DNA of 54,473 bases from Elusimicrobiota bacterium. Its GTDB lineage: Bacteria; Elusimicrobiota; Elusimicrobia; UBA1565; UBA9628. Position 1 is the stretch's first letter. Each line of letters opens with the position of its first letter. Location of the stretch: NCBI GenBank assembly GCA_038059415.1, contig JBBTJN010000007.1, positions 1 through 54,473 of the forward strand. Reading direction: 5' to 3'. The notes beneath the pieces are model-generated. The model did no database searches, was not told the DNA's origin, and saw only the letters and a list, made by a program, of their open reading frames with translations. Positions 25,848 to 43,394 of this stretch are shown here, piece by piece. A program made the translations under genes and the position numbers.

Positions 25848-25887
25848 TTCAGGTAGCTCTAGGCCACCTCGTATACTTAGACGAATG
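25848..25887 (+). promoter_or_regulatory. Candidate promoter TTCAGG-N16-CGTATA, with an ATG 8 nt after the TATACT box
   Basis: Read directly from the sequence. A 7-bp hairpin (25833-25839/25850-25856) overlaps the -35 position. Confidence 0.35.
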
Positions 25888-26232
25888 AGCGCTGGCCTGC
25901 ATCTGCGAGAAGTCCCGGGTCTCCAGTTGCCCGGGCAGCCGGTGGTGGGGGGATGACGGCGCGGCAAGGGCTGCGGATGGGCCGATACTGCCTGCGATGC
26001 GCCCGGGAGTCCCGTTCAGGGCTGAGCATAAGTCCTGTCGTAAGGTGCCCCTTTTCCTTTTACCGCGAACTGTTCGTGCAAGGTGGAGCCGATAGCCCCG
26101 AAACAGGCAGAGGATAAATGCCAAGCTGAGTAGTAGTCACTGGTCGTGGTACTATTTCTTTGCAGAGATTCTCATGGCTAACCCGGTACGGGAAAAGTTT
26201 GGGGGCTGGTACGCCGCTGAAGGAGAAAAGTC

Positions 26233-27165
26233 ATGCCGGGTGCCTACGCTCATATCACTCTAGCGAACCTTCTTAAAGAACCCGCACGGCTTGAGGCCAT
26301 TCCCGCCTTCCCAGTAGAGGCTATCTCCGCAGTTCTGGACTACTTTAAGTTCTGCGAGTTGGGAGCTGTAAGCCCAGACTACCCCTACCTGTCGGTAGGA
26401 GACAAGAAGGCCGAGGCCTGGGCCAACCTCATGCATTATACGCGTACCGGTGCGATGCTCCAGGTCGGAATTGGGAAACTGCGGGGTCTGCCCAAGGAAA
26501 CGATGCACAAAGGATTGGCCTGGTTGCTGGGCTACGCGGCTCACGTGGCAACCGATGTTTCAATCCACCCGGTCGTCAATCTCAAAGTTGGTCGCTACGA
26601 AGACAACAAGAGGATGCACCGAGTCTGTGAGCTGAACCAGGACGCCCATATCTTCCAACGGATGAAGCTCGGGGGCGTCGGTCTCTCCGAGCACCTGGAT
26701 TCAGGGATCGGTGGGTGCTGCAATCCTCGGAACAAGAAGCAGCTCGATACGGACATCGTTGATCTCTGGAAGAGCATTCTTAAAGAGGTCCACCCTGCCG
26801 AGTTTAAGAAGAACCCTCCGGATTTCAACAAGTGGCACAAACTCTTTAAGTTGATGGTCGATGATGTCGCGGAAGAGGGGAATAAGCTGATGCCCTTTGC
26901 CCGGCACCTGGGCGTCAACTGCGGGCTGACTTATCCAACGGCGGACGAGATTGACCGCCAATTCATCGACGGACTTGCTGTTCCCGGCGGTGCCCGCGAG
27001 GGATATGATTCGATCTTCGACCGGACGATTGGCAACGTCGGCGGAGTCTGGCAGCTTGTTGCGTCCGGGGTCCTGCAAGGCGATGAGAAGTATGTGGCCC
27101 GGCTCGGAACATGGAATCTTGATACGGGAAAGGACGAGAACGACCGAATGGTCTTCTGGAGCTGA
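26233..27165 (+). CDS. Zinc-dependent phospholipase C-like family protein (no signal peptide seen)
   Basis: His/Asp-rich blocks AYAHI, SPDYPY, LMHY, GYAAHVATDVSIHP and HRVCELNQDAH. GAAGGAG RBS. Confidence 0.55.
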   Translation: MPGAYAHITLANLLKEPARLEAIPAFPVEAISAVLDYFKFCELGAVSPDYPYLSVGDKKAEAWANLMHYTRTGAMLQVGIGKLRGLPKETMHKGLAWLLGYAAHVATDVSIHPVVNLKVGRYEDNKRMHRVCELNQDAHIFQRMKLGGVGLSEHLDSGIGGCCNPRNKKQLDTDIVDLWKSILKEVHPAEFKKNPPDFNKWHKLFKLMVDDVAEEGNKLMPFARHLGVNCGLTYPTADEIDRQFIDGLAVPGGAREGYDSIFDRTIGNVGGVWQLVASGVLQGDEKYVARLGTWNLDTGKDENDRMVFWS

Positions 27166-27167
27166 GA

Positions 27168-27644
27168 ATGCGAAGAACTACATTCACTGCGGGTGTCGGC
27201 CTAGTCGCCCTCATCTTTGTCGCTTCCTGCCATCGAAAGATTGCCCCAGTCCAGTCCCGCGCCGCCACGGCAGATCAGCCCAGCCTCGGTGCGCCCAACT
27301 CCGAAGAGGTCTTAATTCTTGGTTCGGCGCTCACCAAGCTTAGTGCCTCCGCCGAATCGGCCGTGCGGTATAAAAATCCTCCACCGAACCTGAGTGAGAA
27401 CGACCTGCTCGAGTTCGCTACCCAGCATGACCCATCTCTCCTGGAGCCGTTTTCCAAGTATCGGCTGAAAATTATGAGCCAGGGGGGGCACGCTGTTGTC
27501 CTGGTCTGCACCAAGGATGGGCGGGCGGCATTCCTTGAAGACGCTGGCTGTAGTGGGCCATTGGAGAAACGTGCGGCGGAGGGCTCCCCACTCCCGCCGT
27601 GTGAGTTCTCAGTGAACGTTCGTGAGGCGTGTGCACTCAAATGA
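27168..27644 (+). CDS. Lipoprotein, function unknown
   Basis: Lipobox in MRRTTFTAGVGLVALIFVASC. Confidence 0.6.
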   Translation: MRRTTFTAGVGLVALIFVASCHRKIAPVQSRAATADQPSLGAPNSEEVLILGSALTKLSASAESAVRYKNPPPNLSENDLLEFATQHDPSLLEPFSKYRLKIMSQGGHAVVLVCTKDGRAAFLEDAGCSGPLEKRAAEGSPLPPCEFSVNVREACALK

Positions 27645-28825
27645 GAGTTACAGGAATAATCGCCGCAGTAGTTAGCGTACTGTCCCTGCCCGTTTACGCC
27701 GCCACGCCCTCCGAGCCTTACAAAGTATTCTTCGGCAACCTCCACGCGCATAGCTCTTACTCGGACGGCTCCGGAACTCCCGCAGAGGCTTTTACCTTTG
27801 CTCGCGACACCGGCAAACTCGACTTCATGGCACTATCTGAACATAACCATGCGAGTGCCGAAATGGGAGCTAAGGAACGGCGGGACGGGCTGATGATCGC
27901 GACTCAGGAGGATCTCTACAACGGAGACGGCGAGAACTCCGTTACCTCGGCGGCTCGGCGGGCGACTGAGGACGGACGGTTCGTTGCCCTGGCGGGTCAA
28001 GAGTTCAGCGCAATCTCAAAAGGCAATCACATCAACGTCTTTGAGATCAAGCCGGTGATCAAGACGGAGAACGGTGCCTTCGATCAGCTATTTCGCTTCC
28101 TTGCTGCGACACCGGACAGCCTGGGAGAACCCGCGCTCGTAATGTTGAATCACCCTGGTGACTTCAAGGGCCCTGAAGAGTACGGTGAGGACGACTGCCC
28201 TGACCGGAAGACATGGATCGCGACGTTGAACAAGTACGCGGCGCTAATCGAGGTCCTAAGCGGTCCGGCCATGGCCAAGACCAAGAAGCGCCCAACCGGT
28301 AACGCCCAGCGCGACTATTTTCACTATCTGAGTCTCGGGCTCTACCTAGCACCAACCGCGTCCCAGGACAATCACTACAAAACCTGGGGCACGGCGACGG
28401 ACACGCGGACGGGCGTCTTAGCCAAGAGTCTGACCAAGGCCGACATCCTTAACGCTCTGAAGGCTCGGAGAGCCTACGCCACGCATGACAAGAACTTGCG
28501 CGTATGGTTCCGAGTAGGTGGCAACCTGATGGGAGATATCGTTAAGGCTGGGGCCGACTTGAAGGCGGTCAATGCCACGGTTACGATCGAGGACGGCGAT
28601 GAGCCCCAGGCCCACTACAAGATTGAGCTTCTTCGCGGTGTGGTCGGCGGCGGCGACGACACGGCTGTTGTGACTCAGCGAGAGCTTGTCGGCGACGGTA
28701 GCGTCCGGTTCGAGAACGTTCGCTATCGCGGAGGCAGGAGCTACTACCTCGTCAGGATCGCGCAGAGCAGTGGGCGCGGGCCGAAGGATATGACCTGGAC
28801 GGCCCCAGTCTGGATCGAGCCCTAG
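27641..28825 (+). CDS. Secreted PHP-domain (CehA/McbA-like) metallohydrolase
   Basis: Signal peptide, then FGNLHAHSSYSDGSG and ALSEHNH. ATGA overlap with the preceding gene. Confidence 0.7.
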   Translation: MRVTGIIAAVVSVLSLPVYAATPSEPYKVFFGNLHAHSSYSDGSGTPAEAFTFARDTGKLDFMALSEHNHASAEMGAKERRDGLMIATQEDLYNGDGENSVTSAARRATEDGRFVALAGQEFSAISKGNHINVFEIKPVIKTENGAFDQLFRFLAATPDSLGEPALVMLNHPGDFKGPEEYGEDDCPDRKTWIATLNKYAALIEVLSGPAMAKTKKRPTGNAQRDYFHYLSLGLYLAPTASQDNHYKTWGTATDTRTGVLAKSLTKADILNALKARRAYATHDKNLRVWFRVGGNLMGDIVKAGADLKAVNATVTIEDGDEPQAHYKIELLRGVVGGGDDTAVVTQRELVGDGSVRFENVRYRGGRSYYLVRIAQSSGRGPKDMTWTAPVWIEP

Positions 28826-29061
28826 GAGTTTCGGGAAATCGCAAAGAGGAACCTATGAAGAATTGTCCTTTCTGTGCTGAAGAGATCCAGGCCACTGCGA
28901 AAGGGTGGCAAGTTTGGTGTCAATCCGGATGGCAAGTCCCGTACCTGCGCTGACCGCCGGCTTGCGCATCCTCCACTTGCTGACGGCGAGTGAACTCTGA
29001 CACTTTGACAGTTTGTCAGAAGCCCCAACCCCCTCGCAACGCGACAAGCTCAATAAAAGGG

Positions 29062-29158
29062 TCATGGTTGCCCTTAAAATGACATTAGAGAAGAGCAAGG
29101 TAGACCCTTGAAGTTTTGGTCGGCCGAATACCCTATAAGTCAATATCGCTAGAAACAG
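29062..29158 (+). repeat. Island repeat copy 2
   Basis: TCATGGTTGCCCTTAAAATGAC..CCCTTGAAGTTTTGGTCGGCCGAATACCCTATAAGTCAATATCGCTAGAAACAG. Confidence 0.9.
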
Positions 29159-29198
29159 TGCAAGGATGCGTTCCTCCGGCGTCCGGCGTCTTAGGGCT

Positions 29199-29215
29199 CG
29201 TATAGATGTTTTGTG
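29199..29215 (+). promoter_or_regulatory. CTCGTATAGA box 7 nt upstream of the ligase GTG (candidate leaderless promoter)
   Basis: CGTATA at 29199-29204 and GTG at 29213. Confidence 0.35.
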
Positions 29216-30458: not shown

Positions 30459-30514
30459 GCCACGGCTGGAAGAATTTGGAATCGCCGGCTTCCGAGCGCA
30501 AGAGAATTAAATCA

Positions 30515-30610
30515 TCATGGATGCCTTTAAAATGACATTAGAGAAGACTTACTCGGTCCATTGAAGTTTGGTCGGCCGGAAACCCTATAAGTCAATCTCG
30601 CTTGAAATAG
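30515..30610 (+). repeat. Island repeat copy 3
   Basis: TCATGGATGCCTTTAAAATGAC..CCATTGAAGTTTGGTCGGCCGGAAACCCTATAAGTCAATCTCGCTTGAAATAG. Confidence 0.9.
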
Positions 30611-30627
30611 GGCTGGGAAGGCTCTCT

Positions 30628-30646
30628 CGTATATTGGGTGAGGATG
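30628..30646 (+). promoter_or_regulatory. TCTCGTATATTG box, with GTG 3 nt and ATG 9 nt downstream
   Basis: CGTATA at 30628-30633, lying 18 nt after repeat copy 3. Confidence 0.35.
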
Positions 30647-30905: not shown

Positions 30906-30946
30906 TGAAGGTTCTGATTTGTCGCTTCGTATATCTGTATTCCATG
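30906..30946 (+). promoter_or_regulatory. Candidate ECF-type promoter of the sigma gene: TGAAGG-N16-CGTATA, with the ATG 9 nt after TATATC
   Basis: TGAAGG at 30906-30911, CGTATA at 30928-30933 and ATG at 30944. Confidence 0.45.
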
Positions 30947-31501
30947 GGCGACGGCAGTCAGCAGATCGGATTCATCGAACAGCTCATACTTCGAGAGACG
31001 CCGAGTGCCTATCGCGTGGCGATGAGCCTGACGCGGAACCCTGAGGCCTCAAAGGAGCTTGTTCAGGAAGCCTCCTACCGCATTCTCCTCAACCAGCGGG
31101 CCTTCAACGCATCCCGGTCCGGAACAGCCTGGTTTCAAGCTGTTGTCCGCAACCTGTTCATCGATGGGCGCCGGAGCTTCGAATATCGGCGCGGTGTCTC
31201 GTTGAGTCAGACGATCGTCGCTGATGGGCCCTGCTACAGCGAACTGCTGCCGAGCGATGAGCCTGGGGTGTTGGAGCAACTCGAGCGAGGGGAAGACAGC
31301 CGGGCTGTGCGTCGAATCACGAACAGGCTCCGTAAGGAGCATAAAGAAGTCCTCAAGCTCTGTGACATGCAGGCGTTGAGCTACGAAGAGGCGGCTGGGG
31401 TTCTGGCCGTTTCAGTCGGGACAGTTCGTTCAAGACTATTCCGTGCTAGACGGGCGTTCCGTTTACTCTGGGCCAAGGAGAATCTCGCGCATGGTGGATG
31501 A
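30944..31501 (+). CDS. ECF-type sigma-70 family RNA polymerase sigma factor
   Basis: Region 2 (ASKELVQEASYRILLN..AWFQAVVRNLFIDGRR) and region 4 HTH (LSYEEAAGVLAVSVGTVRSRLFRARRAF). Confidence 0.85.
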   Translation: MGDGSQQIGFIEQLILRETPSAYRVAMSLTRNPEASKELVQEASYRILLNQRAFNASRSGTAWFQAVVRNLFIDGRRSFEYRRGVSLSQTIVADGPCYSELLPSDEPGVLEQLERGEDSRAVRRITNRLRKEHKEVLKLCDMQALSYEEAAGVLAVSVGTVRSRLFRARRAFRLLWAKENLAHGG

Positions 31502-32468
31502 CTGCATTTTTAAGAATGGGTACCTGACGCCTACTGGCGTCAGGGTTTATTCATCGCTCGCTCATAATATTCCAGGCATCGACCTGGATTCGAGCAATGA
31601 CCAGATCTCGGATCTGATCTGTAAGTACGGAGAACGATCTAAGTCCTTGCTGTCTGAACACAGCGAGGATAGCCTGACCTTTACAACCTTTCATGCGCTG
31701 AGCAAGTTGCCAACGAAAGATTGGCTTGTTGATTTCTTCCGTGCGGCCTTCGGGCCCAAGATTGCCGCGGCTTATGCGCCCTACGTGAATGAAGCTGTCC
31801 TAAGATTTTGGCAACCCCATAGCAGCCCGAATCTGTATCTCGAGTACTTGGCCAAAAAGATTTCACGTGAGGGTGAGTCAGCGCTCAAGCACCTCGACGC
31901 AGGATCGCGCGTCAGGGCCAAGCAACGACTCCAAAAGCTCCTTTCCGGTGAGCTTGAGTGGGGCGAGCAACCGACTGAGGTTGATGTGCAGATCACTATC
32001 GGTAAAAAATTGATCATCTTTGTCGAGGTCAAGGTCTATTCCGACATCGGCAAGTTCGGGACCTTGAACGGGACGGATAACCGGAATCAAGTCATCCGTA
32101 ACCTCGAGGTGGTTTCGGAGGTCAAGCAGCGCCTCGGGTTCGAGGATGCCAAACTCGTGCTCCTGACTTTAGATCGCGCTTCGGACAAGCTGTACTCCCA
32201 ATCCATGCGGCGCTATCGAGGACCCGATTTGCGGAAGATGCGGATGTGGGATGAGGTCACGCCCGGCTGGGAGAGAATCCGAAAGGACCTGCCTCACCGA
32301 GCGGATGAGAGCCCGGAGTGGCACCAGCGTCTGAACACGTCGCTTGGCTGGGTAATCTGGCCGGAAATGGTCAAGATTCTTGTCGCAGGGTACAGCCGGC
32401 TATGGCGTAACGTGGCCCTCCAGATGGATGATCTTCCCGCATCAAATGATATTGCTGCCAGTCGATAG
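31491..32468 (+). CDS. Hypothetical protein with a PD-(D/E)xK-like motif
   Basis: TEVDVQITIGKKLIIFVEVKVYSD. The start overlaps the sigma stop by 11 nt. Confidence 0.45.
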   Translation: MVDDCIFKNGYLTPTGVRVYSSLAHNIPGIDLDSSNDQISDLICKYGERSKSLLSEHSEDSLTFTTFHALSKLPTKDWLVDFFRAAFGPKIAAAYAPYVNEAVLRFWQPHSSPNLYLEYLAKKISREGESALKHLDAGSRVRAKQRLQKLLSGELEWGEQPTEVDVQITIGKKLIIFVEVKVYSDIGKFGTLNGTDNRNQVIRNLEVVSEVKQRLGFEDAKLVLLTLDRASDKLYSQSMRRYRGPDLRKMRMWDEVTPGWERIRKDLPHRADESPEWHQRLNTSLGWVIWPEMVKILVAGYSRLWRNVALQMDDLPASNDIAASR

Positions 32469-32733: not shown

Positions 32734-32951
32734 AGCGCCGGGAGAAACGGGTTCAGGGGGCCGAGTGTCCGGCTTGCAACGGACAGGGGAAGGTCTGCTG
32801 CGTGACATGGGCCGTGGCAAGGGGGAACGCCGGCTCGGACCTGGAGTACAGCGGGATCGGACTACCGCTCTGGCCGCTCGGGTCCCATCTCGAGATGACA
32901 CGATGCCCGTTCTGCGGGAAGGGATTTACTCCTTCGGGAAGAAGAAGCTGA
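32730..32951 (+). CDS. Small zinc-ribbon protein (73 aa)
   Basis: CPACNGQG and CPFCGKG pairs. ATGA overlap with the preceding ORF. Confidence 0.45.
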   Translation: MKRREKRVQGAECPACNGQGKVCCVTWAVARGNAGSDLEYSGIGLPLWPLGSHLEMTRCPFCGKGFTPSGRRS

Positions 32952-33156
32952 GAGGCTTGCCGTATAACTTAGACATGCGCCGAAGCTCGATGATGTCCAG
33001 GCGACGCTCGCCCGACTCCATCTTTGAGACGAAGGATTGCGGCTTCCGCAGCTTGCTGGCCACCTCGACCTGGGTCAGCTTGGCCGCGACACGGGCTTCC
33101 CGCAGCTTTCTGACAATGTCCCGGTGCTCTGCCGTAAAAATAGTCTTTGATTTCAT
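32926..33156 (-). CDS. XRE-family HTH transcriptional regulator
   Basis: LREARVAAKLTQVEVASKLRKPQSFVSKMESGERRLDIIEL. An alternative ATG lies at 33162. Confidence 0.85.
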   Translation of the reverse strand: MKSKTIFTAEHRDIVRKLREARVAAKLTQVEVASKLRKPQSFVSKMESGERRLDIIELRRMSKLYGKPLSFFFPKE

Positions 33157-33157
33157 G

Positions 33158-33180
33158 CCCATCCCTTGACATGGGATGGG
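33158..33180. promoter_or_regulatory. Perfect 8-bp inverted repeat CCCATCCC-TTGACAT-GGGATGGG around a TTGACA -35-like hexamer; candidate XRE operator
   Basis: Read directly. It lies between the XRE start and the divergent lipoprotein gene. Confidence 0.5.
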
Positions 33181-33240
33181 TCAGCCTATATCCTTTTATC
33201 CAATATCCATAAACGGGATATTTCAAAGGAGTGCAGCGTA

Positions 33241-34293
33241 ATGAGCAGACTGAATGCGGACTTGAGGATTACGCTTGTCCTGATTGCAGCGCTCGTGACC
33301 GCCGCTTGTCGTGGCGGCAGTTTTCAACCACTGGGGATGTCTCTGCAAGGCTTCGAGAAGATTCTCCCAGACCCCTGCAAATTGGATTCCACGCGGAAAA
33401 TCAGCGACGGGGTTTTCAAGGACTACACGCTCCAGGCCTACAACTGTGGAGACGCTGGCCGTCAGGAGCTTGTCATTGATGGCTCCCGGGTTCTCAAGTA
33501 CGCCATCCTCATGGACGCTGCTATATTCAAGGATCCGCGGGTAATCGCAGCCCAGCGTGATCAGGTCTTGCGGCTCGGAATGTTTGGGTCGTTATATACG
33601 GTCGCCAAGAATGTCCCCAAAGGTAAGCTCCTTGACTTGTTGAAACAGAAGCCGCCCGAGGTCTTCGATATATTCGGGGAGAACTGGGAGAAGTGCATCC
33701 GGCTCAACGTCCCGATGACCTCGACATTGGAAGGCTACGCCTATTCGTGCGAGGTGGAGAATGGCGACACCGTTCGTTTCAGCGTCACTTCTGAGGGGGC
33801 GTACCTCAAGGAGAAATCGCTACGGATACACGGAGACCCGGCTGGGGGCGCATCGACCGGCGACTCCTCGGGGCCTGACGTTCTGCCGAAGATTACAGGC
33901 CCACGTGATTGCAGCAGGATCGATGTAGGCATGTCGATGAATGAGGTCGAGAGGGTGATGGGACAAAAGTCCGATGAACCGGCAGACATAGTCCTGATGT
34001 GGCGGGATCCTAATGGGCCTATGGGGATGGGCATGCCGATCCGGGGGTTTGGACTCGAGCGCAAGGAGTTCGTGGGGAATCTTGAGAAAGGGTTCACTTA
34101 CTGGTACGTCTCCCTCTCGTGCACGGTGGAGTTTAGCCCTCGCACCGCCAGGGTAAGTAGCGTTAATCGTCACTCCGTAGTTCCCTTGACTGCTAAACCC
34201 AAAGGATCTGAGTTCGGGGTGTACATGCTCGGTAGGGTGCCGGGCCTTCGGACCCCAGAGTGGGCGTCGGGACAGGGAGGAGATGCGCCATGA
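33241..34293 (+). CDS. Lipoprotein, function unknown
   Basis: Lipobox in MSRLNADLRITLVLIAALVTAAC. Confidence 0.6.
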   Translation: MSRLNADLRITLVLIAALVTAACRGGSFQPLGMSLQGFEKILPDPCKLDSTRKISDGVFKDYTLQAYNCGDAGRQELVIDGSRVLKYAILMDAAIFKDPRVIAAQRDQVLRLGMFGSLYTVAKNVPKGKLLDLLKQKPPEVFDIFGENWEKCIRLNVPMTSTLEGYAYSCEVENGDTVRFSVTSEGAYLKEKSLRIHGDPAGGASTGDSSGPDVLPKITGPRDCSRIDVGMSMNEVERVMGQKSDEPADIVLMWRDPNGPMGMGMPIRGFGLERKEFVGNLEKGFTYWYVSLSCTVEFSPRTARVSSVNRHSVVPLTAKPKGSEFGVYMLGRVPGLRTPEWASGQGGDAP

Positions 34294-36824: not shown

Positions 36825-36841
36825 CGTATATTGGTAGGGTG
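36825..36841 (+). promoter_or_regulatory. CTTCGTATATTG box 7 nt upstream of the GTG at 36839
   Basis: CGTATA at 36825-36830. Confidence 0.35.
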
Positions 36842-37408
36842 AGGCTCGGCTCTTCCGCCTTTATCGTGCAAATCCTGCGGGACCATCTCTTCGCAGGGGA
36901 GCGAGTGCTCCGCGAGCGAGCCGCGGAGTTCCTCAGTAAAACGCGATCCCGCGCGGTAGTCCGTAAGCTCGCACGAGCTCTCAGTTCTCCGCGGGACTAT
37001 GTTTCCACCCGAGCGGCCTGGGGGCTCACCCTCTGCAAGGATGACCTCGCCATAGACTTGCTCGAAAGGGCACTGAACGGCGGGAATGAGCGGATTCGTT
37101 CGCAGGCGTCATGGGCTCTCGGGCGGATAGAGAATCCCCGAGCTATGAAGGTGCTCGTATCCGCCTTGGAAAGCCCCAGACGAGCTGTGTACGCTCAAGC
37201 GGCTGCGGGACTTTGGCGAGCGGCGGTAAACGGATACCGAAGCGCGCAGGTGGAACGAACACTCATAGGTCTACTGAAGCGTGATAAAGGTCAAGTCGCG
37301 CTCACGCTGAGCCACATGCTCCGAAATCGGACGAGCCCGCCTCGAAAGAGACCTGCCACGGCGGTTCTAACCGCGTTCGAGCGGCATGGCGGCTCCTGGA
37401 TCCGGTAG
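36839..37408 (+). CDS. HEAT-repeat protein (short, no signal peptide seen)
   Basis: Repeats of the type R..A.WALG.I..P.A...L. GTG start. Confidence 0.6.
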   Translation: MRLGSSAFIVQILRDHLFAGERVLRERAAEFLSKTRSRAVVRKLARALSSPRDYVSTRAAWGLTLCKDDLAIDLLERALNGGNERIRSQASWALGRIENPRAMKVLVSALESPRRAVYAQAAAGLWRAAVNGYRSAQVERTLIGLLKRDKGQVALTLSHMLRNRTSPPRKRPATAVLTAFERHGGSWIR

Positions 37409-37409
37409 G

Positions 37410-37453
37410 CCATGAAGAATACCGGCTACGCGATTCCGTATAGAAATAGTGCA
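37410..37453 (+). repeat. Degenerate fifth copy of the 3' half of the island repeat, containing TGAAGA-N18-CGTATA
   Basis: CCATGAAGAATACC..CCGTATAGAAATAGTGCA versus copy 2 CCTTGAAG..GAATACC..CGCTAGAAACAGTGCA. The last 14 nt match at 13 of 14 positions. Confidence 0.5.
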
Positions 37454-37735
37454 CCTAAAACAACGCCGGAGATGTTTCCGGACGCAAGCATTAGGGGATC
37501 GACGTGGTGCACCGATCGCTTGCGAAGTGGCCCGGTGGAGGACCCATACCGCCAGATCACAACTCTCAGCGAGAGATCGTCGCTGCCAGGCCCCACGAGT
37601 GCCTGCGAGTCCGGGAGTATGGCCACTAACGAGCGGCAGGCGGCTCCCCGCGAAGAAACTCTCACGCATCGAAAGTACTCGACCCTGGTAGGTAGGGGTT
37701 AGTAGCTCGGTGCGCCCAACCGACAGATAGTAGTT

Positions 37736-39034
37736 ATGTTTACCTCGAGCCTCTTCGACACGACGCCGACGCGGGAAGCTCAGCTCGAGCAGATTCGGCA
37801 GATGTACCAGCTTCCTCCCGACCATGAGTTTATCCCTGTGGAGCTGCGCGTCGCCGAGATGCTCCGCGAAGCGGGAGCGCGGGGCCTTCGCGTCGACAGC
37901 GACATCCTTACCTCGGAAACCGCCAAGGTCGAAGCCGAACTCAGCGTCTTGCAGCGTGATATCGATCGGCTGGCGCGGCATTCTGTCAGGGTAGGCTCAT
38001 CGGCGGACCTCGCCCAGCTCCTATTCAACGAGCTTGGGTTTCCTTGCGCGAAGCAGACGCGCAAGGGCAAGCCTTCATTCGGCGTCGAGGCCCTCAAGAA
38101 GTACGCCCACCCCGTCGCCGCCCTGATTTCCAAATGGAAGTCCGCCCGCTCCACGTTGAGTTTCCTACAGGTGATGCGCTCATACCTCCTCGATGGGCGG
38201 ATTCGCACGGAGTTCCTTCCCTGGAACTGCCCGACCGGCCGCATCTACTGCCGCGACCTCAATCTCCAGCAGGTGCCAGCGCCTGGATGCCGCGCCATCG
38301 TCCCGGACCCGGGCATGGTCTTCGTCTACGGGGACTTCGACCAGGCCGAGCTCCGAATCATGATGGCGCTCGCCAGCGAAACCCGCTACTACGCGGCTCT
38401 CCAAAACGCGGATATCCATATCCTTACAGCCGCCGCCGTCTTCGCCGTCGCCGAGTCCGCCGTCACGGACGCGCAGCGCGATGTCGGCAAGATGGTAACC
38501 TACGCGGTCTCCTACGGCGTCTACCCAACCTCATTGGCCTTCCGGCTCGGCATCAGCCGGCTGCACGCCGAGGACTACATTGCCCGCTACTTCTCGGCGC
38601 ATCCTCGTCTTGCGACTTGGATGGAGGAGCGTCGTGCTTCCGCCCGTGCTTGTGGGCATACCTCCACGCTCTTCGGCCATCGCCGGGACCTGCGCTCGGT
38701 GCGCGACTTTGGCTCGCGGGACCGTATGGCCGTCAACACGGCGGTCCAAGGTGCCCAAGCCGGCTATTTAAAGCTCGCCATCAAGCGGGTCGGCGAGGAG
38801 TTCGCTCAGGCCATGCCCTCGGCCCAGTTCATGATGACGGTCCACGACTCCATCCTCCTGCAGGTCCCCGAGGCCCAAGCCGATGAGGCCGCAGACCTCC
38901 TCCGGCGCTGCATGCGCTTCGATCTGCCCAACCCCGCTCCCGATGGGCCGCTACAACTCCAGGCCACCGTATCCTCCGGGCGCTCCTGGGCCGCCGTCGC
39001 CCACGACGAGCCCATGCTCCCCGCCGCTGTCTGA
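37736..39034 (+). CDS. Family A DNA polymerase, polymerase domain only (432 aa, no exonuclease domains)
   Basis: Motif A DFDQAELRIMMA, motif B RDVGKMVTYAVSYGV and motif C TVHDSILL (HDS instead of the usual HDE). Confidence 0.8.
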   Translation: MFTSSLFDTTPTREAQLEQIRQMYQLPPDHEFIPVELRVAEMLREAGARGLRVDSDILTSETAKVEAELSVLQRDIDRLARHSVRVGSSADLAQLLFNELGFPCAKQTRKGKPSFGVEALKKYAHPVAALISKWKSARSTLSFLQVMRSYLLDGRIRTEFLPWNCPTGRIYCRDLNLQQVPAPGCRAIVPDPGMVFVYGDFDQAELRIMMALASETRYYAALQNADIHILTAAAVFAVAESAVTDAQRDVGKMVTYAVSYGVYPTSLAFRLGISRLHAEDYIARYFSAHPRLATWMEERRASARACGHTSTLFGHRRDLRSVRDFGSRDRMAVNTAVQGAQAGYLKLAIKRVGEEFAQAMPSAQFMMTVHDSILLQVPEAQADEAADLLRRCMRFDLPNPAPDGPLQLQATVSSGRSWAAVAHDEPMLPAAV

Positions 39035-39077: not shown

Positions 39078-39093
39078 CGTATACCAATTCATG
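39078..39093 (+). promoter_or_regulatory. CTCCGTATACC box 6 nt upstream of an ATG (39091); probable promoter of the Dam-like gene
   Basis: CGTATA at 39078-39083. The methyltransferase ATG at 39128 has its own GGAGGG RBS. Confidence 0.35.
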
Positions 39094-39895: not shown

Positions 39896-39934
39896 TTCGA
39901 CGCCCGCTTGAGAAATCCTAGAATGTGTCCGATG
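39896..39934 (+). promoter_or_regulatory. Sigma-70-like promoter TTCGAC-N17-TAGAAT, with the ATG 8 nt after the -10 box (leaderless)
   Basis: TTCGAC at 39896-39901, TAGAAT at 39919-39924 and ATG at 39932. Confidence 0.45.
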
Positions 39935-40926: not shown

Positions 40927-41773
40927 TCTGGTCGCGGAATTGGTGGCGCTCCACCAGTCGGTCAGGGCGGAAGAGCACCTATCGATGGTTCGTGAGCACA
41001 TCGTCCGCGACCCCGAGACAGGAAAAGCGCTTTGGGATTCATACATCCCTTTCGTCGGCCCGCACTATGAGCCGGGGGGAGTTCTGCTCGTCGGCACGGC
41101 GCAGAGTCTGGCGAAGACGGCCCGGAAGACTGACCCCAGCGATTGGCGCCTGGCGACGGGCACACCGGACCACCCGCTGTTTCGCCTATACCGCGTGGGG
41201 GACACCACTGTGCCGCGGCCTCTCGAGATTCGGGATGTCTCGTTCGAGAAGATCGCGATTCAGCCGTTCGAGGATGGCATCTTCGCGGGAATCGCGGGAA
41301 TTGCTCTCGCCGCGAAAGGCATGGGTGTTTATCGAGACCTTAATGATGTGACGTGCCGGATCGCGGTCACGAATTTCTTCAAACACTCACTTCATACGGA
41401 ATCTGGAGGCGACCTACGCCCCTGGGATCTGCCACGCGCAACCGCGCAGGTGTACGCCCGAGTGGTCTCGGAGCAATATATCCGCCGGGAGTTGGAAATC
41501 CTAAAGCCTGCCGTAGTCGTCGCTTTCAATAACGAGACCGCCCAAGAGATGCGCAGGTTGGGGCATCCCGCTGTTTATGGGATTAAGGACCCCGCGTGGC
41601 TTAAACGCGGTGGGAGCTTTCCGGGTAAGCCGGTGAGCTTGGACGAAGAAGCTCGTGAGTTGCACGCGATATATGTGTCCCAGATGCGCTCCATGTACAG
41701 TCAGCAGATGGCCGGCCGTGTGACCGGTTACTTGGCGTACTACCATGCGGAGCTGCTGAGGCCGCCGGCATGA
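40916..41773 (+). CDS. Hypothetical protein, possibly uracil-DNA-glycosylase-superfamily fold
   Basis: Blocks GVLLVGTAQS, AVTNFFKHSL and LKPAVVVAFNNETA are arranged like UDG family motifs but are diverged. 11-nt overlap with the upstream gene. Confidence 0.4.
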   Translation: MAANLVAELVALHQSVRAEEHLSMVREHIVRDPETGKALWDSYIPFVGPHYEPGGVLLVGTAQSLAKTARKTDPSDWRLATGTPDHPLFRLYRVGDTTVPRPLEIRDVSFEKIAIQPFEDGIFAGIAGIALAAKGMGVYRDLNDVTCRIAVTNFFKHSLHTESGGDLRPWDLPRATAQVYARVVSEQYIRRELEILKPAVVVAFNNETAQEMRRLGHPAVYGIKDPAWLKRGGSFPGKPVSLDEEARELHAIYVSQMRSMYSQQMAGRVTGYLAYYHAELLRPPA

Positions 41774-41786
41774 TCAAAGGCGACTG

Positions 41787-42434
41787 ATGCGCATATCGCT
41801 GATCGGAACAACCCACGCCGAGAGGGGCTTGGCGAACACGGGAGAGCTCCTGGCGATCCTGGAGCGCTGCAAGCCGGAGGTCATCTTCGCGGAGATTCCT
41901 GCCACCCATGCGGAGCGTTACGCAAACGCCTCTCATGCTACTCTCGAGTCCATCGCCGTTGCGCGATATCTTGCGAGCAATCAAGCGGAGGTTGTTCCCG
42001 TCGATCTCGCCGAGCCCGAGGAGAAGTTCTTCGACGATTCGAAAGAGATGTTCACGGCCGTCGAGCGGAGGAGTCCCAAGTACCGCAGCCTTGTAGATCG
42101 CAACACCGATGAGGTCCGGGCCGGGGGATTTCGTTATCTCAACAGCGACCAGTGCATGCAGGCGTGGGAAGACATCTATCGCGAGGTGCTGGAGACGATC
42201 GAATGGATCGGCGACCGGCGGCTGCGTGAGATTTACGACCTTTGGAGCCATGTCAATGAGAGCCGTGACCGAGAGATGATGCGGAATATTGCGCTCTACT
42301 CAGATCGCAACGCTGGGGCACGTGGAGTATTCCTTGTTGGTGCTGCACACCGGAAGTCCATCATCGACAAGGCTTCCGCGGGAAGCGAAACCGGATTGCC
42401 TCCAATCGAGTGGGACCTTGGCGGCTTTCTTTGA
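41787..42434 (+). CDS. TraB/GumN/PrgY-like family protein
   Basis: N-terminal ISLIGTTHAE..PEVIFAEIP and C-terminal SRDREMMRNI..VFLVGAAHRKSI resemble the TraB family signature. Confidence 0.45.
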   Translation: MRISLIGTTHAERGLANTGELLAILERCKPEVIFAEIPATHAERYANASHATLESIAVARYLASNQAEVVPVDLAEPEEKFFDDSKEMFTAVERRSPKYRSLVDRNTDEVRAGGFRYLNSDQCMQAWEDIYREVLETIEWIGDRRLREIYDLWSHVNESRDREMMRNIALYSDRNAGARGVFLVGAAHRKSIIDKASAGSETGLPPIEWDLGGFL

Positions 42435-42595
42435 TAGGCAATAGGCCGACCACATCATGACGGAGAAGTGCTAACCAAGGGGTACCGTCAAAAAGGTATA
42501 GCTACAGCGAATCCTGCGTGGGCTCAATCGTGCTTCGTTCCCGCCCCGTAAAGTATTTCCAGTCCCGATGGTGCCGGGAAAGTTTAATGGATTAG

Positions 42596-42692
42596 CTCTG
42601 GATGGCTTTAGATTGACCTAGGAGCTCTTGTCCATAGTCCCTTGAAGTTTTGGTCGGCCGGATACGCTATAGGTCAATCTCGCTAGGAATAG
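42596..42692 (+). repeat. Island repeat copy 4
   Basis: CTCTGGATGGCTTTAGATTGACCTAGGAGCTCTTGTCCATAGTCCCTTGAAGTTTTGGTCGGCCGGATACGCTATAGGTCAATCTCGCTAGGAATAG. Confidence 0.9.
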
Positions 42693-42879
42693 GCCTCCCG
42701 TTCGTTGAAACAGGCCGCAGCTCCAAATCAGCCGCCGGCGATGCTCCCAATCCCATCGTAGGCGCTAAAGGGTGTGATCGTCCCCGGTTTCGATGCTATT
42801 GGCGGGCACCTCGTGCGAGCAACTCGGCGCTCGCTCCGTGACGATGGGGGCACCGACGAAAAGGTATATAGGCAGTGGG

Positions 42880-42960
42880 GAGGTAGGTCTTATTTAACGT
42901 ATTGGTTTATACAGATACCCACTTCAATGAGGTAGTTAGTAGTGTTAATAGATTAGGTTT
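42880..42960. other. Locally AT-rich tract with short TTAGTAG/TTAATAG-type repeats; candidate replication origin or unwinding element
   Basis: GGTCTTATTTAACGTATTGGTTTATACAGATA..GTAGTTAGTAGTGTTAATAGATTAGGTTTA stands out in a GC-rich context. Confidence 0.3.
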
Positions 42961-42982
42961 ACGTCGGCTGGGATGTTAATCG

Positions 42983-43021
42983 TGCAGGACGCGATGGCCG
43001 TCTCCGTATATTGGGAGCATG
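42983..43021 (+). promoter_or_regulatory. TGCAGG-N16-CGTATA, with the ATG 7 nt after TATATT (leaderless DUF2958 gene)
   Basis: TGCAGG at 42983-42988, CGTATA at 43005-43010 and ATG at 43019. Confidence 0.4.
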
Positions 43022-43324
43022 AAGCTGCTGACCAATGAACTAGAGAAGCTCCTGCCGGGGATTAAGACAACCGAGGCCCAGCCCGATCCCGTCGTCTTCG
43101 TCAAGTTCTTCGACCCTTGCGGCTCCTGGACCTGGTACGCCACCGAGTACGACCCGGTTCGCCGTGAGTTCTTCGGCTTCGTTCGCGGCTTCGAAGACGA
43201 ACTGGGCTACTTTAGCCTAGATGAGCTTTCATCCGTCAAGAACAAGCTCGGCCTCGGCATCGAGCGCGACCTTTACTGGCAGCCCACCCCGCTGTCCAAG
43301 GTCAAGAGCGGCGAAGTCCGCTGA
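43019..43324 (+). CDS. DUF2958-family protein
   Basis: VFVKFFDPCGSWTWYATEYDP..FFGFVRGFEDELGYFSLDEL is the DUF2958 signature common on plasmids and ICEs. Confidence 0.75.
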   Translation: MKLLTNELEKLLPGIKTTEAQPDPVVFVKFFDPCGSWTWYATEYDPVRREFFGFVRGFEDELGYFSLDELSSVKNKLGLGIERDLYWQPTPLSKVKSGEVR

Positions 43325-43347
43325 GCAATATCCCCGCCGCAAGTCTC

Positions 43348-43394
43348 CGTATATCAAGAGAGTCAGCAGGCTTGGTCATAGGAGATTTTGCATG
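43348..43394 (+). promoter_or_regulatory. CTCCGTATATCA box 37 nt upstream of the ATG at 43392 (with an AGGAG RBS)
   Basis: CGTATA at 43348-43353. Confidence 0.3.

What the first reader, a model, noticed from the sequence alone, without database searches (positions are those of the whole stretch)
25870..43353. Recurrent YYCGTATA box 5-9 nt upstream of start codons implies leaderless mRNAs
These are the + strand intergenic occurrences I found. At 25870 an ATG follows 8 nt after the TATA hexamer. At 29199 the ligase GTG follows at 7 nt. At 30628 a GTG follows at 3 nt and an ATG at 9 nt. At 30928 the sigma ATG follows at 9 nt. At 36825 a GTG follows at 7 nt. At 37437 a GTG follows at 5 nt. At 39078 an ATG follows at 6 nt. 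At 43005 the DUF2958 ATG follows at 7 nt. At 43348 and 20322 the box lies further from the ATG. The flank is pyrimidine-rich (CTC or CTT) in all but the last. A -10 element ending about 7 nt before the start codon means transcription would begin at or next to the start codon. A separate sigma-70-like TTCGAC-N17-TAGAAT-N7-ATG at 39896-39934 shows the same geometry. The chromosomal flanks, by contrast, show ordinary Shine-Dalgarno spacing. CGTATA alone is expected several times by chance in 54 kb, and I saw copies in coding DNA (7774, 49650, and the minus strand at about 40665). The signal is therefore the intergenic concentration and the fixed spacing. My count is by eye, not exhaustive.
Basis: seen in the sequence. 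Interest (0 to 1): 0.7.

Follow-up and report, generated by a model that had tools for sequence, protein, structure and literature searches.

The report
Mobile element's own promoter box, leaderless genes
The repeated CGTATA box is real and is most likely the -10 promoter element read by a sigma factor that a 35-kb integrated mobile element of an uncultured groundwater bacterium (Elusimicrobiota) carries itself; it sits so close to the start codons that most of its messages should have no leader, which is a tidy but not unprecedented arrangement.

Summary

- **Enrichment.** CGTATA occurs 19 times in the window against 6.5 expected. In the element core it occurs 12 times on the + strand against 1.7 expected. 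Nine of those 12 lie in the 10.7% of DNA that is non-coding.
- **Conservation.** Ten related elements from other metagenomes keep the exact hexamer at the same five gene fronts (ligase, Zn-ribbon protein, radC/sigma operon, small HEAT protein, DUF2958). It lies 7-10 nt before ATG/GTG, the spacer sequence varies, and there is no Shine-Dalgarno sequence.
- **Promoter, not translation signal.** The box also starts a conserved structured RNA and sits about 40 nt upstream of two Shine-Dalgarno-led genes.
- **Which sigma.** Every element encodes an ECF-type sigma whose own operon carries the box. CGTATA is the B. subtilis SigW-type -10 element, and a weak -35-like GA(A/C) peaks 18 nt upstream.
- **Host habit.** Leaderless geometry is also seen in host genes, as TAGAAT-N6-start.

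Corrections to the finding: the site at 37437 precedes an RNA, the sites at 39078 and 43348 have leaders, and the ATG at 25870 opens only 23 codons. No transcription start site is shown experimentally. I class it as a new member of known kinds.

The parts
16067..16105 (+). Left end of the element: a 39-bp copy of the 5' half of tRNA-Ser (att repeat).
   Evidence: Exact 39-bp direct repeat with 51230-51268.
51230..51318 (+). tRNA-Ser(TGA), the integration target and right end of the element. The tyrosine integrase gene (50032-51087) lies next to it.
   Evidence: ARAGORN and Rfam; Phage_integrase Pfam match; direct repeat.
25870..25875 (+). CGTATA box P1, just after repeat R25. The following ATG (25885) opens only 23 codons, so P1 probably drives the operon at 25953-28825 through a leader. 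This is uncertain.
29199..29204 (+). CGTATA box P2, 8 nt before the GTG (29213) of the ATP-dependent DNA ligase, with no Shine-Dalgarno sequence.
   Evidence: Box and 8-nt spacing (7 nt in L004) are conserved in all nine ligase genes compared, the window's included. The GTG is the first possible start in 8 of 9.
30628..30633 (+). CGTATA box P3, 10 nt before the ATG (30644) of a 78-aa CxxC...CxxC Zn-ribbon protein.
   Evidence: Conserved in all elements with 7-10 nt spacing. The upstream GAAA(T/C)AG comes from repeat R30.
30928..30933 (+). CGTATA box P4, 10 nt before the ATG (30944) of the ECF sigma gene. It is preceded by CTGAAG 17 nt upstream. This is the autoregulatory promoter.
   Evidence: The box precedes the sigma gene or the radC-sigma operon in all 11 elements. 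Public proteins with the N-terminal extension 'M(G/C)RFVYLYS' are translations of the box itself.
30944..31501 (+). ECF-type sigma factor, 185 aa, the proposed reader of the box.
   Evidence: Sigma70_r2 and r4_2 Pfam matches. TIGR02937 sigma70-ECF scores 67.5 bits against a cutoff of 42.9. Closest solved structures are SigE, SigH, SigL and SigW.
31491..32468 (+). 325-aa partner protein, translationally coupled to sigma, function unknown. It has invariant D165...E179-x-K181.
   Evidence: 75-84% identical between elements, which is more conserved than sigma. No Pfam, PDB, PHROG or PADLOC match.
32961..32966 (+). CGTATA embedded antisense in the 3' end of the minus-strand HTH repressor-like gene (32926-33162). 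It is a possible sigma-dependent antisense or read-through promoter.
   Evidence: Kept in 4 elements through the codons (TTA/CTA/ATA)-TAC-G.. while the first codon position varies. Inference only.
36825..36830 (+). CGTATA box P6, 8 nt before the GTG (36839) of a 189-aa HEAT-repeat protein.
   Evidence: Conserved in all nine genes compared at 7-8 nt spacing.
37437..37442 (+). CGTATA box P7, the promoter of the structured RNA and, probably, of the PolA gene.
   Evidence: Conserved in 8 elements.
37449..37735 (+). Conserved structured RNA of about 290 nt that abuts the ATG of a polymerase-domain-only family A DNA polymerase (37736-39034). It is not the 80-aa ORF.
   Evidence: Indels not in multiples of three; CTG or no codon at the supposed 'start' in L002, L032 and L033; 72 pairs, 94.6% paired, 10 pairs with compensatory changes, 0 of 500 shuffles reach the score. 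No Rfam match.
39078..39083 (+). CGTATA box P8, 44 nt before the ATG (39128) of the Dam-like methyltransferase, which has a GGAGG Shine-Dalgarno sequence. This is a leadered case.
   Evidence: The box and its upstream CTGAATAC are conserved in L004, which has no ATG next to the box.
43005..43010 (+). CGTATA box P9, 8 nt before the ATG (43019) of the DUF2958 protein.
   Evidence: The ortholog in L030 has the box 9 nt before a GTG, with an in-frame stop 6 nt upstream.
43348..43353 (+). CGTATA box P10, 38 nt before the ATG (43392) of a 157-aa protein that has an AGGAG Shine-Dalgarno sequence. This is a leadered case.
20322..20327 (+). CGTATA copy in the cargo region between the SIR2 gene and a methyltransferase gene. 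Its flank (AT) is atypical and its status is uncertain.
   Evidence: No ortholog was available.
39897..39934 (+). Host-type (sigma-70-like) leaderless promoter: TCGACG-N16-TAGAAT-N7-ATG, in front of a 115-aa ORF.
44573..44640 (.). Divergent pair of host-type leaderless promoters: TAGAAT-N7-GTG on the - strand (103-aa ORF) and TAGAAT-N6-ATG on the + strand (310-aa protein, followed by the MCM helicase and other genes).

Best explanation
**Setting.** The window holds a 35-kb integrative element, bounded by att repeats at 16067-16105 and 51230-51268 and inserted in tRNA-Ser of an Elusimicrobiota chromosome.

**What the box is.** The CGTATA box is the -10 element of about ten element-specific promoters. 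The proposed mechanism is as follows.
1. Host RNA polymerase core binds the element's own ECF-type sigma factor (30944-31501).
2. This holoenzyme recognises CGTATA. At some promoters it also reads a weak -35-like (C)TGA(A/C)(G) box 17-18 nt upstream.
3. Transcription starts about 7-9 nt downstream of the box.

**Consequences.**
- The start codons of the ligase, Zn-ribbon, sigma (or radC-sigma), small HEAT and DUF2958 genes lie 7-10 nt after the box with no Shine-Dalgarno sequence. Their mRNAs should therefore begin at, or within about 3 nt of, AUG/GUG and be translated as leaderless mRNAs.
- The same promoter type also makes a structured RNA of about 290 nt joined to the PolA gene.
- It also makes two ordinary leadered, Shine-Dalgarno-containing mRNAs.
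- The sigma gene sits behind its own box, which gives positive feedback.

**Host habit.** Leaderless expression is not special to the element. The host's own housekeeping-type promoters (TAGAAT) show the same geometry.

**Shown:** the enrichment, strand bias and intergenic location of the box; its conservation and spacing; the absence of Shine-Dalgarno sequences; and the ECF nature of the sigma.

**Inferred:** that this sigma reads the box, where transcription starts, and that translation is leaderless.
For: **Enrichment and placement.**

**Conservation.** In 10 other independent elements the box is exactly conserved at orthologous sites. The spacer and upstream DNA diverge, and the spacing stays at 7-10 nt.

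**Start codons.** The start codon after the box is the first possible start in 27 of 42 sites. In 8 sites an in-frame stop lies 3-9 nt upstream. The sigma protein alignment starts at the Met 10 nt after the box.

**Promoter rather than translation signal.**
- The box precedes a non-coding RNA whose conservation starts 8-10 nt downstream.
- The box lies 38-44 nt upstream of genes that have Shine-Dalgarno sequences.
- The ligase gene follows divergently oriented cargo genes in L003, L025 and L030-L033, so a promoter must lie in that intergenic region, and the box is the only conserved element there.

**ECF link.**
- The sigma passes the NCBIfam ECF cutoff.
- CGTATA is the right-hand element of the bipartite TGAAACTTT...CGTATA motif listed in DBTBS (PMC8769915). 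That this is the B. subtilis SigW motif is my own knowledge.
- CGT-core -10 elements appear in the S. coelicolor SigE regulon, including one CGTATA (PMC6767563).
- GA[AC] peaks 18 nt upstream, in 21 of 60 distinct sites across 6 promoter groups.
- The box precedes the sigma operon in all 11 elements.
- The box is enriched only in loci whose sigma is at least 54% identical. Loci with about 40%-identical sigmas have no excess of the box (no copy in five, 1 + and 2 - copies in L005/L012), and there the sigma gene has a normal GGAGG-led start.

**Not sigma-70.** Host-type promoters are TAGAAT.

**Precedent for start-site distance.** The sigma of phage phiEco32 starts transcription 6-8 bp downstream of its single promoter element tAATGTAtA (PMC8948821).

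**Leaderless expression is plausible in this host.** A host gene whose signal peptide starts at the ATG lies 6 nt after TAGAAT. GTG or ATG is sufficient for leaderless initiation in mycobacteria (PMC6448022).
Against: - No transcription start site, RNA-seq or proteomic data exist for this uncultured organism, so the start position is inferred.
- The -35-like element is weak and absent from many sites. A Gibbs sampler found only ortholog-specific upstream conservation, not a common -35. The Zn-ribbon promoters place GAAA(T/C) 3 nt further upstream than the others do. The canonical ECF 'AAC' core is not generally present.
- The link between sigma and box is confounded by common descent, because every element that has the box is homologous as a whole.
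- With spacings of 9-10 nt the mRNA may carry 1-3 nt of leader.
- Many spacers end in G-rich runs (GGTG, GAGG, GGGT) directly next to the start codon. These could be vestigial or unusually close Shine-Dalgarno sequences, used when the genes are read through from upstream promoters.
- GUG-initiated leaderless mRNAs translate poorly in E. coli (own knowledge).
Confidence: 0.7

Rival explanations
1. The box is a promoter -10 element, but it is read by a host-encoded alternative (ECF or other) sigma factor. The element's sigma is then just one of the genes in that regulon.
For: Nothing here shows directly which sigma binds the box. Mobile elements often use host stress sigmas. The conserved 325-aa partner and the Zn-ribbon protein could be the real regulators.
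Against: - The box precedes the sigma operon in all 11 elements, which is the usual ECF autoregulation pattern.
- About 38 kb of Elusimicrobiota host DNA held here (the window flanks and L005) has only chance-level copies, none in front of a gene.
- Loci with sigmas about 40% identical to this one have no excess of the box.
Confidence: 0.13
2. The box acts at the RNA level. It would be a processing site (CGUAUA) where an endoribonuclease cuts polycistronic transcripts just upstream of each ORF, producing processed leaderless mRNAs. Alternatively, it would be a non-Shine-Dalgarno ribosome-recruiting element.
For: The box has a fixed short distance to start codons and there is no Shine-Dalgarno sequence. 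Nuclease genes (S1/P1, and a possible PD-(D/E)XK-like partner) lie in the element.
Against: - The box is the only conserved sequence in intergenic regions that follow divergently transcribed genes, where a promoter is required.
- A position-specific -35-like signal lies 17-18 nt upstream of the box.
- The box precedes a non-coding RNA.
- The box lies about 40 nt from Shine-Dalgarno-led genes.
- The box matches a known ECF -10 element.
Confidence: 0.05
3. The box is an operator or activator-binding site for one of the element's DNA-binding proteins (the HTH protein or the Zn-ribbon protein), and the true promoters overlap it or lie elsewhere.
For: Short conserved boxes near start codons can be operators. 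The element encodes an HTH protein and a Zn-ribbon protein next to the sigma. A 105-nt repeat with further conserved boxes lies upstream of three of the sites.
Against: - The box is a single non-palindromic hexamer, always on the sense strand.
- No other -10-like element is conserved between the box and the start codon, and there is no room for one in 7-10 nt.
- The HTH protein has its own obvious palindromic operator at 33157-33182.
Confidence: 0.05
4. The box is a variant housekeeping (sigma-70/SigA) -10 element (TATAnn or an extended form) of the host.
For: The box contains TATA.
Against: - In the CGTATA register the near-invariant A at position 2 of the hexamer is a G.
- In the TATAnn register the near-invariant final T is not conserved: T, A, C and G all occur.
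- Host-type promoters in the same DNA read TAGAAT, with TTGACA-like -35 boxes.
- The invariant CG makes no sense for sigma-70.
Confidence: 0.05

Closest known systems
ECF sigma promoters of the Bacillus subtilis SigW type (TGAAAC-N16-CGTATA), and ECF promoters in general (-35 'AAC', -10 'CGT')
   Same: - The -10 hexamer CGTATA is identical (DBTBS motif quoted in PMC8769915; the attribution to SigW is my own knowledge).
- The cognate sigma is an ECF-type two-domain sigma.
- The sigma gene lies behind its own promoter.
- The sigma operon promoters read TGAAG/TGACG-N17-CGTATA.
   Different: - The -35 is weak, variable and often absent, and it lacks the AAC core.
- The sigma is only distantly related to SigW (E = 1e-7 to the solved SigW structure).
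- No membrane anti-sigma gene is evident. The conserved partner is an unknown 325-aa cytoplasmic-looking protein.
- The regulon is a mobile element's replication and repair-like genes, not envelope stress genes.
- Most targets are leaderless.
Phage-encoded sigma factors with their own promoter class (phiEco32 gp36: tAATGTAtA; phage 7-11 gp47: GTAAtg-N16-aCTA)
   Same: - A mobile genetic element brings its own sigma, which redirects host RNA polymerase to a short, sharply conserved element repeated in front of its genes.
- Transcription starts 6-9 bp downstream of the element (PMC8948821).
- The phiEco32 element shares the GTAtA core.
   Different: - Those are lytic phages with temporal middle and late classes. 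This element is an integrated, non-phage-like element with no structural genes found.
- gp36 lacks region 4, whereas this sigma has region 4.
- Leaderless targets are not a feature reported for those phages in the text I read.
Leaderless mRNAs of Actinobacteria and Deinococcus (a -10 element about 6-7 nt before ATG/GTG), and the lambda cI mRNA from PRM
   Same: - The geometry is the same: a -10 element immediately upstream of the start codon, no Shine-Dalgarno sequence, and both ATG and GTG used (PMC6448022).
- Regulatory genes in a divergent switch are leaderless, as here at 44573-44640. The lambda cI comparison is my own knowledge.
   Different: - In those organisms the promoters are housekeeping-sigma promoters (TANNNT). 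Here a second class, dependent on an alternative sigma, has the same design.
- The organism is an uncultured Elusimicrobiota bacterium, for which I found no transcript 5'-end data.

Membership tests
ECF sigma-dependent promoter | A cognate ECF (group 4, sigma2 + sigma4 only) sigma factor is present. | tested here: met
   The 185-aa protein has Sigma70_r2 and r4_2. TIGR02937 sigma70-ECF scores 67.5 bits against a cutoff of 42.9. The best solved relatives are ECF SigE, SigH, SigL and SigW.
ECF sigma-dependent promoter | The -10 element has a CGT core. | tested here: met
   CGTATA is invariant in 60 distinct sites from 11 elements. It is identical to the DBTBS right-hand element quoted in PMC8769915.
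ECF sigma-dependent promoter | A conserved -35 element (typically containing AAC) lies 16-17 nt upstream. | tested here: inconclusive
   - There is a positional peak of GA[AC] at 18 nt (21 of 60 sites, 6 groups) and of [CT]GA[AC][GC] at 17 nt (15 of 60, 4 groups).
- Many sites lack it and AAC is rare.
- The column-wise information content of the 11 window sites is low, and Gibbs sampling found no common box.
ECF sigma-dependent promoter | Autoregulation: the promoter motif lies upstream of the sigma gene or operon. | tested here: met
   The box lies 7-10 nt before the sigma gene, or before radC-sigma, in all 11 elements.
ECF sigma-dependent promoter | Transcription from the motif depends on that sigma. 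| not testable with these tools
   This needs in vitro transcription or reporter assays.
Leaderless mRNA | The transcription start site coincides with the start codon, or lies within 5 nt of it. | not testable with these tools
   It is inferred from the box-to-start distance of 7-10 nt, from the onset of RNA conservation 8-10 nt after the box, and from transcription start sites 6-9 bp downstream of the elements of comparable sigmas.
Leaderless mRNA | No Shine-Dalgarno sequence at functional distance. | tested here: met
   No GGAG, GAGG or AGGA lies 5-13 nt upstream of the box-adjacent starts. Internal and other genes of the same element do have such sequences.
Leaderless mRNA | The start codon is correctly assigned. 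| tested here: met
   - It is the first possible start in 27 of 42 sites, and stops lie 3-9 nt upstream in 8.
- The conserved sigma N-terminus starts there.
- Synonymous third-position changes begin at the ligase GTG.
- The Pfam ligase domain starts at residue 11.
Housekeeping sigma-70 -10 element (TAnnnT) | A at hexamer position 2 and T at position 6. | tested here: not met
   The CGTATA register has G at position 2. The TATAnn register has a variable position 6. Host-type -10 elements here are TAGAAT.
phiEco32 gp36-type single-element promoter | A sigma without region 4 and a promoter without any -35. | tested here: not met
   This sigma has region 4 (PF08281, E = 1e-12), and a weak -35-like positional signal exists.

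The most novel reading that the evidence does not exclude
An undescribed family of self-replicating integrative elements of Elusimicrobiota runs most of its core programme through its own ECF sigma, from a nearly -35-independent CGTATA promoter.

- The family carries a ligase, a polymerase-domain-only PolA, an MCM helicase and a clamp-loader-like ATPase, plus defence cargo.
- Nearly all protein targets are deliberately leaderless.
- The same promoter makes a new structured RNA of about 290 nt, fused without a Shine-Dalgarno sequence to the PolA gene.
- A copy embedded antisense in the repressor gene would flip the switch.

The RNA, and the very highly conserved 325-aa sigma partner, would then be new components of the sigma and replication control.
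Probability: 0.35. Interest if true: 0.65.

Novelty: new member of a known kind. Interest (0 to 1): 0.5.

Why it matters
- **Annotation.** The box gives a ready-made promoter and regulon map for a family of mobile elements in a phylum with almost no genetics. It corrects gene starts: public sigma and ligase models start at the wrong codon. It also removes one false ORF that is really an RNA.
- **Testable parts.** If the sigma-box pair is confirmed, it is a compact orthogonal transcription unit (one small sigma, one 6-bp box) that yields leaderless mRNAs.
- **Biology of the host.** It indicates that leaderless expression is used both by an Elusimicrobiota host and by its mobile element.
- **Limits.** Neither element-encoded sigmas nor leaderless mRNAs are new in principle.

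Tried and rejected
- **Common -35 box.** Gibbs sampling on 41 upstream regions returned only ortholog-specific conservation (TGGATTC, TA(A/G)GTCA at -33), not a shared -35. The fixed-register information content of the 11 window sites showed nothing beyond YY-CGTATA.
- **Degenerate box.** One-mismatch variants are not enriched, so I did not extend the site list.
- **Rfam.** A search of the whole window and a relaxed search of 37300-37800 found only the tRNA.
- **Viral contigs.** An exact-pattern scan for the box plus the RNA 5' end found nothing.
- **Genome collection.** The scan with the sigma profile gave only three loci. One is a true relative (L004) and two are distant.
- **The 325-aa partner.** Single-sequence AlphaFold gave a mean pLDDT of 36 and was unusable, so I ran no fold search. 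PDB sequence and profile searches, Pfam at E = 1, NCBIfam, PHROGs and PADLOC all gave nothing. The PD-(D/E)XK idea rests only on an invariant D...ExK seen by eye.
- **RNA stability.** Single-sequence folding of the RNA is no better than shuffles (z = -0.22). The case for structure rests on covariation and indel patterns only.
- **Sites rejected as promoters.** 49649 and 50843 are coding. 7774, 17592 and the minus-strand copies are coding and at chance level.
- **Prophage.** Rejected because no structural or packaging genes were found.

Full report

Yes. CGTATA occurs 19 times in the 54.5-kb window against 6.5 +/- 2.8 in dinucleotide-preserving shuffles, and no shuffle reaches 19. YYCGTATA occurs 12 times against 1.9 expected.

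In the element core (25155-51087):
- The + strand has 12 copies against 1.7 expected from a first-order Markov model (P = 2e-7).
- The - strand has 3 copies against 1.6, which is not significant.
- Nine of the 12 + strand copies lie in the 10.7% of that DNA that I call non-coding (P = 3e-7).

Nine of the 19 copies have an ATG or GTG that opens at least 60 codons, 6-10 nt downstream. The background frequency is 4.6% (P = 6e-8). One-mismatch variants are not enriched beyond the exact copies, so the box is sharply defined.

**2. What surrounds it?**

The G+C content drops from 0.63-0.67 to 0.55-0.58 between about 15 and 51 kb. A 39-bp exact direct repeat, which is the 5' half of tRNA-Ser(TGA), lies at 16067-16105 and 51230-51268. 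A tyrosine integrase gene (50032-51087) lies next to the intact tRNA. This is therefore an integrated element of about 35 kb.

The host is an Elusimicrobiota bacterium. Every named top hit of the flanking SufS protein (75-87% identity) is annotated as an Elusimicrobia/Elusimicrobiota MAG. The contig comes from a Hainich groundwater metagenome.

The left third of the element is cargo:
- A SIR2-HerA defence pair.
- Two DNA methyltransferases and other genes.

The rest is a conserved core:
- ATP-dependent ligase.
- A 78-aa CxxC...CxxC protein.
- An ECF-type sigma.
- A 325-aa partner protein.
- An HTH gene on the minus strand.
- A lipoprotein, a large HEAT protein and an S1/P1 nuclease.
- A small HEAT protein.
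- A polymerase-domain-only family A DNA polymerase.
- A Dam-like methylase.
- Several unknown genes.
- A DUF2958 protein.
- A divergent regulatory pair.
- An MCM-like helicase and a clamp-loader-like ATPase.
- A DUF5131 protein.
- An excisionase-like protein and the integrase.

No phage structural gene was found.

**3. Comparative test**

I retrieved related loci through homologs of the sigma and of PolA. After removing two duplicates, ten other independent elements remain: L001, L002, L003, L004/L031, L008, L024, L025, L030, L032 and L033. They share the core gene order but carry different cargo (Hachiman, GmrSD, type I restriction-modification, and others).

The exact hexamer is kept on the sense strand at the orthologous positions in all of them, while the neighbouring bases diverge. 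The distance from the last A of the box to the start codon is shown below.

| Gene | Distance to start codon (nt) |
|---|---|
| Ligase | 8 in eight elements, 7 in one |
| Zn-ribbon protein | 7-10 |
| Sigma or radC-sigma | 7-10 |
| Small HEAT protein | 7-8 |
| DUF2958 | 8-9 |

- The spacer sequence is not conserved (for the ligase: GATGTTTT, GTTGTTTC, ACTGTTCA, GTCGTGAG, GCCGCCTT, GCTGAGGG) and contains no properly spaced Shine-Dalgarno sequence.
- The start codon after the box is the first possible start in 27 of 42 cases. In eight cases an in-frame stop lies only 3-9 nt upstream.
- The sigma alignment begins at the Met 10 nt after the box. Three public protein models carry an N-terminal 'M(G/C)(R/L)FVYLY(S/F)', which is simply the translated box TTCGTATATCTGTAT.
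- Other genes of the same element do have good Shine-Dalgarno sequences (25155, 26233, 27168, 39128, 43392, 43880, 47476). The lack of one at box-adjacent genes is therefore specific.

**4. Transcription signal or translation signal?**

Three facts favour transcription.

(a) The site at 37437 does not precede a protein.
- The 80-codon 'ORF' is a conserved RNA of about 290 nt.
- Its alignment shows indels that are not multiples of three. The supposed GTG is CTG in L002 and is absent or out of register in L032 and L033.
- Conservation begins at GCACCUAAAACAA, 8-10 nt after the box.
- The consensus structure has 72 pairs and 94.6% of cells paired. Ten pairs show changes on both sides, and no shuffle out of 500 reaches the covariation score.
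- Rfam has no match.

(b) At 39078 and 43348 the box lies 44 and 38 nt upstream of ATGs that have GGAGG and AGGAG Shine-Dalgarno sequences. In L004 the 39078-type box has no ATG beside it.

(c) The ligase gene follows cargo genes on the opposite strand in several elements. A promoter must therefore lie in that intergenic region, and the box is the only conserved element there.

**5. Which sigma?**

The box does not fit a housekeeping -10 element:
- In the CGTATA register, position 2 is G.
- In the TATAnn register, the last position is variable.
- Promoters of housekeeping type in the same DNA read TAGAAT, sometimes with TTGACA-like -35 boxes.

The box does fit ECF promoters:
- CGTATA is the right-hand element of the bipartite TGAAACTTT...CGTATA motif from DBTBS (PMC8769915). 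I know this as the B. subtilis SigW consensus.
- CGT-core -10 elements are listed for S. coelicolor SigE, including one CGTATA (PMC6767563).

The element's 185-aa sigma passes the NCBIfam ECF model.

A weak -35-like signal exists:
- GA[AC] peaks 18 nt upstream, in 21 of 60 distinct sites from six promoter groups.
- [CT]GA[AC][GC] peaks 17 nt upstream, in 15 of 60 sites.
- It is clearest in the sigma-operon promoters (CTGAAG or CTGACG, then N17, then CGTATA).
- It is absent from many sites, and Gibbs sampling did not find a common box.

The sigma operon carries the box in all eleven elements, which is the usual ECF autoregulation pattern.

The box is enriched only in loci whose sigma is at least 54% identical to the window's. 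Loci with sigmas about 40% identical have no excess of the box (no copy in five of them, 1 + and 2 - copies in L005/L012), and their sigma gene has a long conserved leader with a GGAGG Shine-Dalgarno sequence. This correlation is confounded by common descent, so I put the sigma assignment at about 0.7.

**6. Leaderless or not?**

The start position is inferred, not measured. The evidence is:
- The onset of RNA conservation 8-10 nt after the box.
- Transcription starts 6-9 bp downstream of the promoter elements of the phiEco32 and phage 7-11 sigmas (PMC8948821).
- The 7-10 nt spacing to the start codon.

Together these imply 5' untranslated regions of 0-3 nt.

Leaderless use of both ATG and GTG is established in mycobacteria (PMC6448022). 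The host itself appears to use the design:
- TAGAAT-N6-ATG precedes a chromosomal 514-aa gene whose signal peptide begins at that ATG.
- TAGAAT-N6-GTG precedes the next chromosomal gene.
- Both genes have a third-codon-position G+C content (GC3) of 0.78-0.83, like SufS and NadA.

Inside the element the same housekeeping-type geometry is found at 39919 (N7-ATG) and in a divergent pair at 44578(-) and 44626(+). The contrast is between two promoter classes, not between leaderless and leadered DNA.

Caveat: many spacers end in G-rich runs next to the start codon. These could serve as very close Shine-Dalgarno sequences on read-through transcripts.

**7. Site-by-site verdict in the window**

| Status | Sites |
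|---|---|
| Leaderless protein starts, well supported | 29199 (ligase), 30628 (Zn-ribbon; the ATG at 10 nt, not the GTG at 4 nt), 30928 (sigma), 36825 (HEAT), 43005 (DUF2958) |
| Promoter of an RNA and PolA | 37437 |
| Promoters with a leader and a Shine-Dalgarno sequence | 39078, 43348 |
| Promoter likely, target unclear | 25870 |
| Embedded antisense in the HTH gene | 32961 |
| Uncertain | 20322 |
| Coding coincidences or chance | 7774, 17592, 49649, 50843 and the four minus-strand copies |

At 32961 the box is kept in four elements through the codons (TTA/CTA/ATA)-TAC-G.., whose -TA third positions are unusual for this G+C content. It is a possible antisense or read-through promoter, by inference only.

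**8. Comparison with what is known**

The parts are known:
- ECF sigma promoters with a CGT-core -10 element and autoregulation.
- Mobile-element-encoded sigmas with private promoter classes (phiEco32, phage 7-11).
- Leaderless mRNAs with a -10 element abutting ATG or GTG (Actinobacteria, Deinococcus).

The combination is new as an instance. An ECF sigma of an integrative, non-phage element in Elusimicrobiota has a regulon that is mostly leaderless and a -35 that is weak. I class it as a new member of known kinds, with an interest score of 0.5.

The structured RNA fused to the PolA gene, and the very conserved 325-aa sigma partner (75-84% identity between elements, against the 54-86% of the sigma), are the less expected items. 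They deserve their own follow-up.

Noticed in passing
window 37449-37735 (+); also L002:14421-14756, L004:8670-8976, L025:7485-7777, L030:7511-7802, L032:9694-10000, L033:8537-8828: A conserved structured RNA of about 290 nt lies directly upstream of, and abuts, the ATG of a polymerase-domain-only PolA gene that has no Shine-Dalgarno sequence. In L002 the RNA occurs without PolA. It has 72 consensus pairs, 10 of them with compensatory changes. There is no Rfam match. The single-sequence stability z-score is only -0.22.
   Followed up: partly
window 25725-25840, 29052-29167, 30505-30618, 42599-42701: Four copies of an intergenic repeat of about 105-115 nt. Each contains a TA(G/A)AAT box, a terminator-like hairpin followed by a T-run, and the conserved TATAAGTCAAT(A/C)TCGCT(A/T)GAAA(T/C)AG. 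Three copies end 17-40 nt upstream of a CGTATA box. The 3' half is conserved upstream of the Zn-ribbon gene in all related elements. It may be a terminator-plus-regulatory cassette.
   Followed up: partly
window 16067-16105 and 51230-51268: An exact 39-bp direct repeat, equal to the 5' half of tRNA-Ser(TGA) through the anticodon loop, defines the ends of an integrative element of about 35.2 kb. The integrase gene lies at the tRNA end.
   Followed up: yes
window 17520-20360 (-), 20557-22357 (+): The cargo region holds a SIR2-HerA anti-phage defence pair (PADLOC HerA E = 8e-149, SIR2 E = 3e-44) and two N6/N4 DNA methyltransferases. Related elements carry other defence cargo at the same end (Hachiman HamA plus helicase, GmrSD, AIPR, type I restriction-modification, Z1/DUF4420).
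   Followed up: partly
window 53004-53009 (-) and 54404-54409 (-), host chromosome: Host genes show housekeeping-type leaderless geometry. TAGAAT-N6-ATG precedes a 514-aa gene whose signal peptide starts at that ATG, and TAGAAT-N6-GTG precedes a 223-aa gene. Both genes have GC3 of about 0.8.
   Followed up: partly
window 44573-44640: Back-to-back TAGAAT leaderless promoters drive a 103-aa gene (-) and a 310-aa gene (+) that heads the MCM helicase/replication operon. This looks like the element's genetic switch.
   Followed up: no
window 33157-33194: The palindrome CCCATCCC-TTGACA-TGGGATGGG spans the -35 of a TTGACA-N17-TATCCT promoter. It lies immediately next to the start of the divergent HTH gene (ATG at 33162 on the minus strand) and is a likely operator for that HTH repressor. 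The + strand gene it controls is a lipoprotein with a Shine-Dalgarno-led ATG at 33241.
   Followed up: no
window 31491-32468 (+): The 325-aa protein is translationally coupled to the sigma gene (the two overlap by 11 nt). It is 75-84% identical between elements, more conserved than most of their sigmas (54-64% identical to the window's; one reaches 86%), and has invariant D165...E179-x-K181. It matches no known family or solved structure.
   Followed up: partly
public protein models P0004, P0007, P0009; ligase genes in L003, L024, L026-L028, L030: Automatic gene calls are misplaced at these promoters. Three sigma models start 9 codons too early, inside the box (M-x-x-F-V-Y-L-Y-x). Several ligase models start about 11 codons too late.
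   Followed up: yes
L005, L006, L009-L012 upstream of the sigma gene: The sister clade of sigmas, about 40% identical, has a different conserved upstream region of about 100 nt (GGTTCCCAGGTAGGGCCCCACCATTTA(T/A)TCCTCG...), with a normal GGAGG-led start and no CGTATA in front of the sigma gene. It probably uses a different promoter specificity.
   Followed up: no
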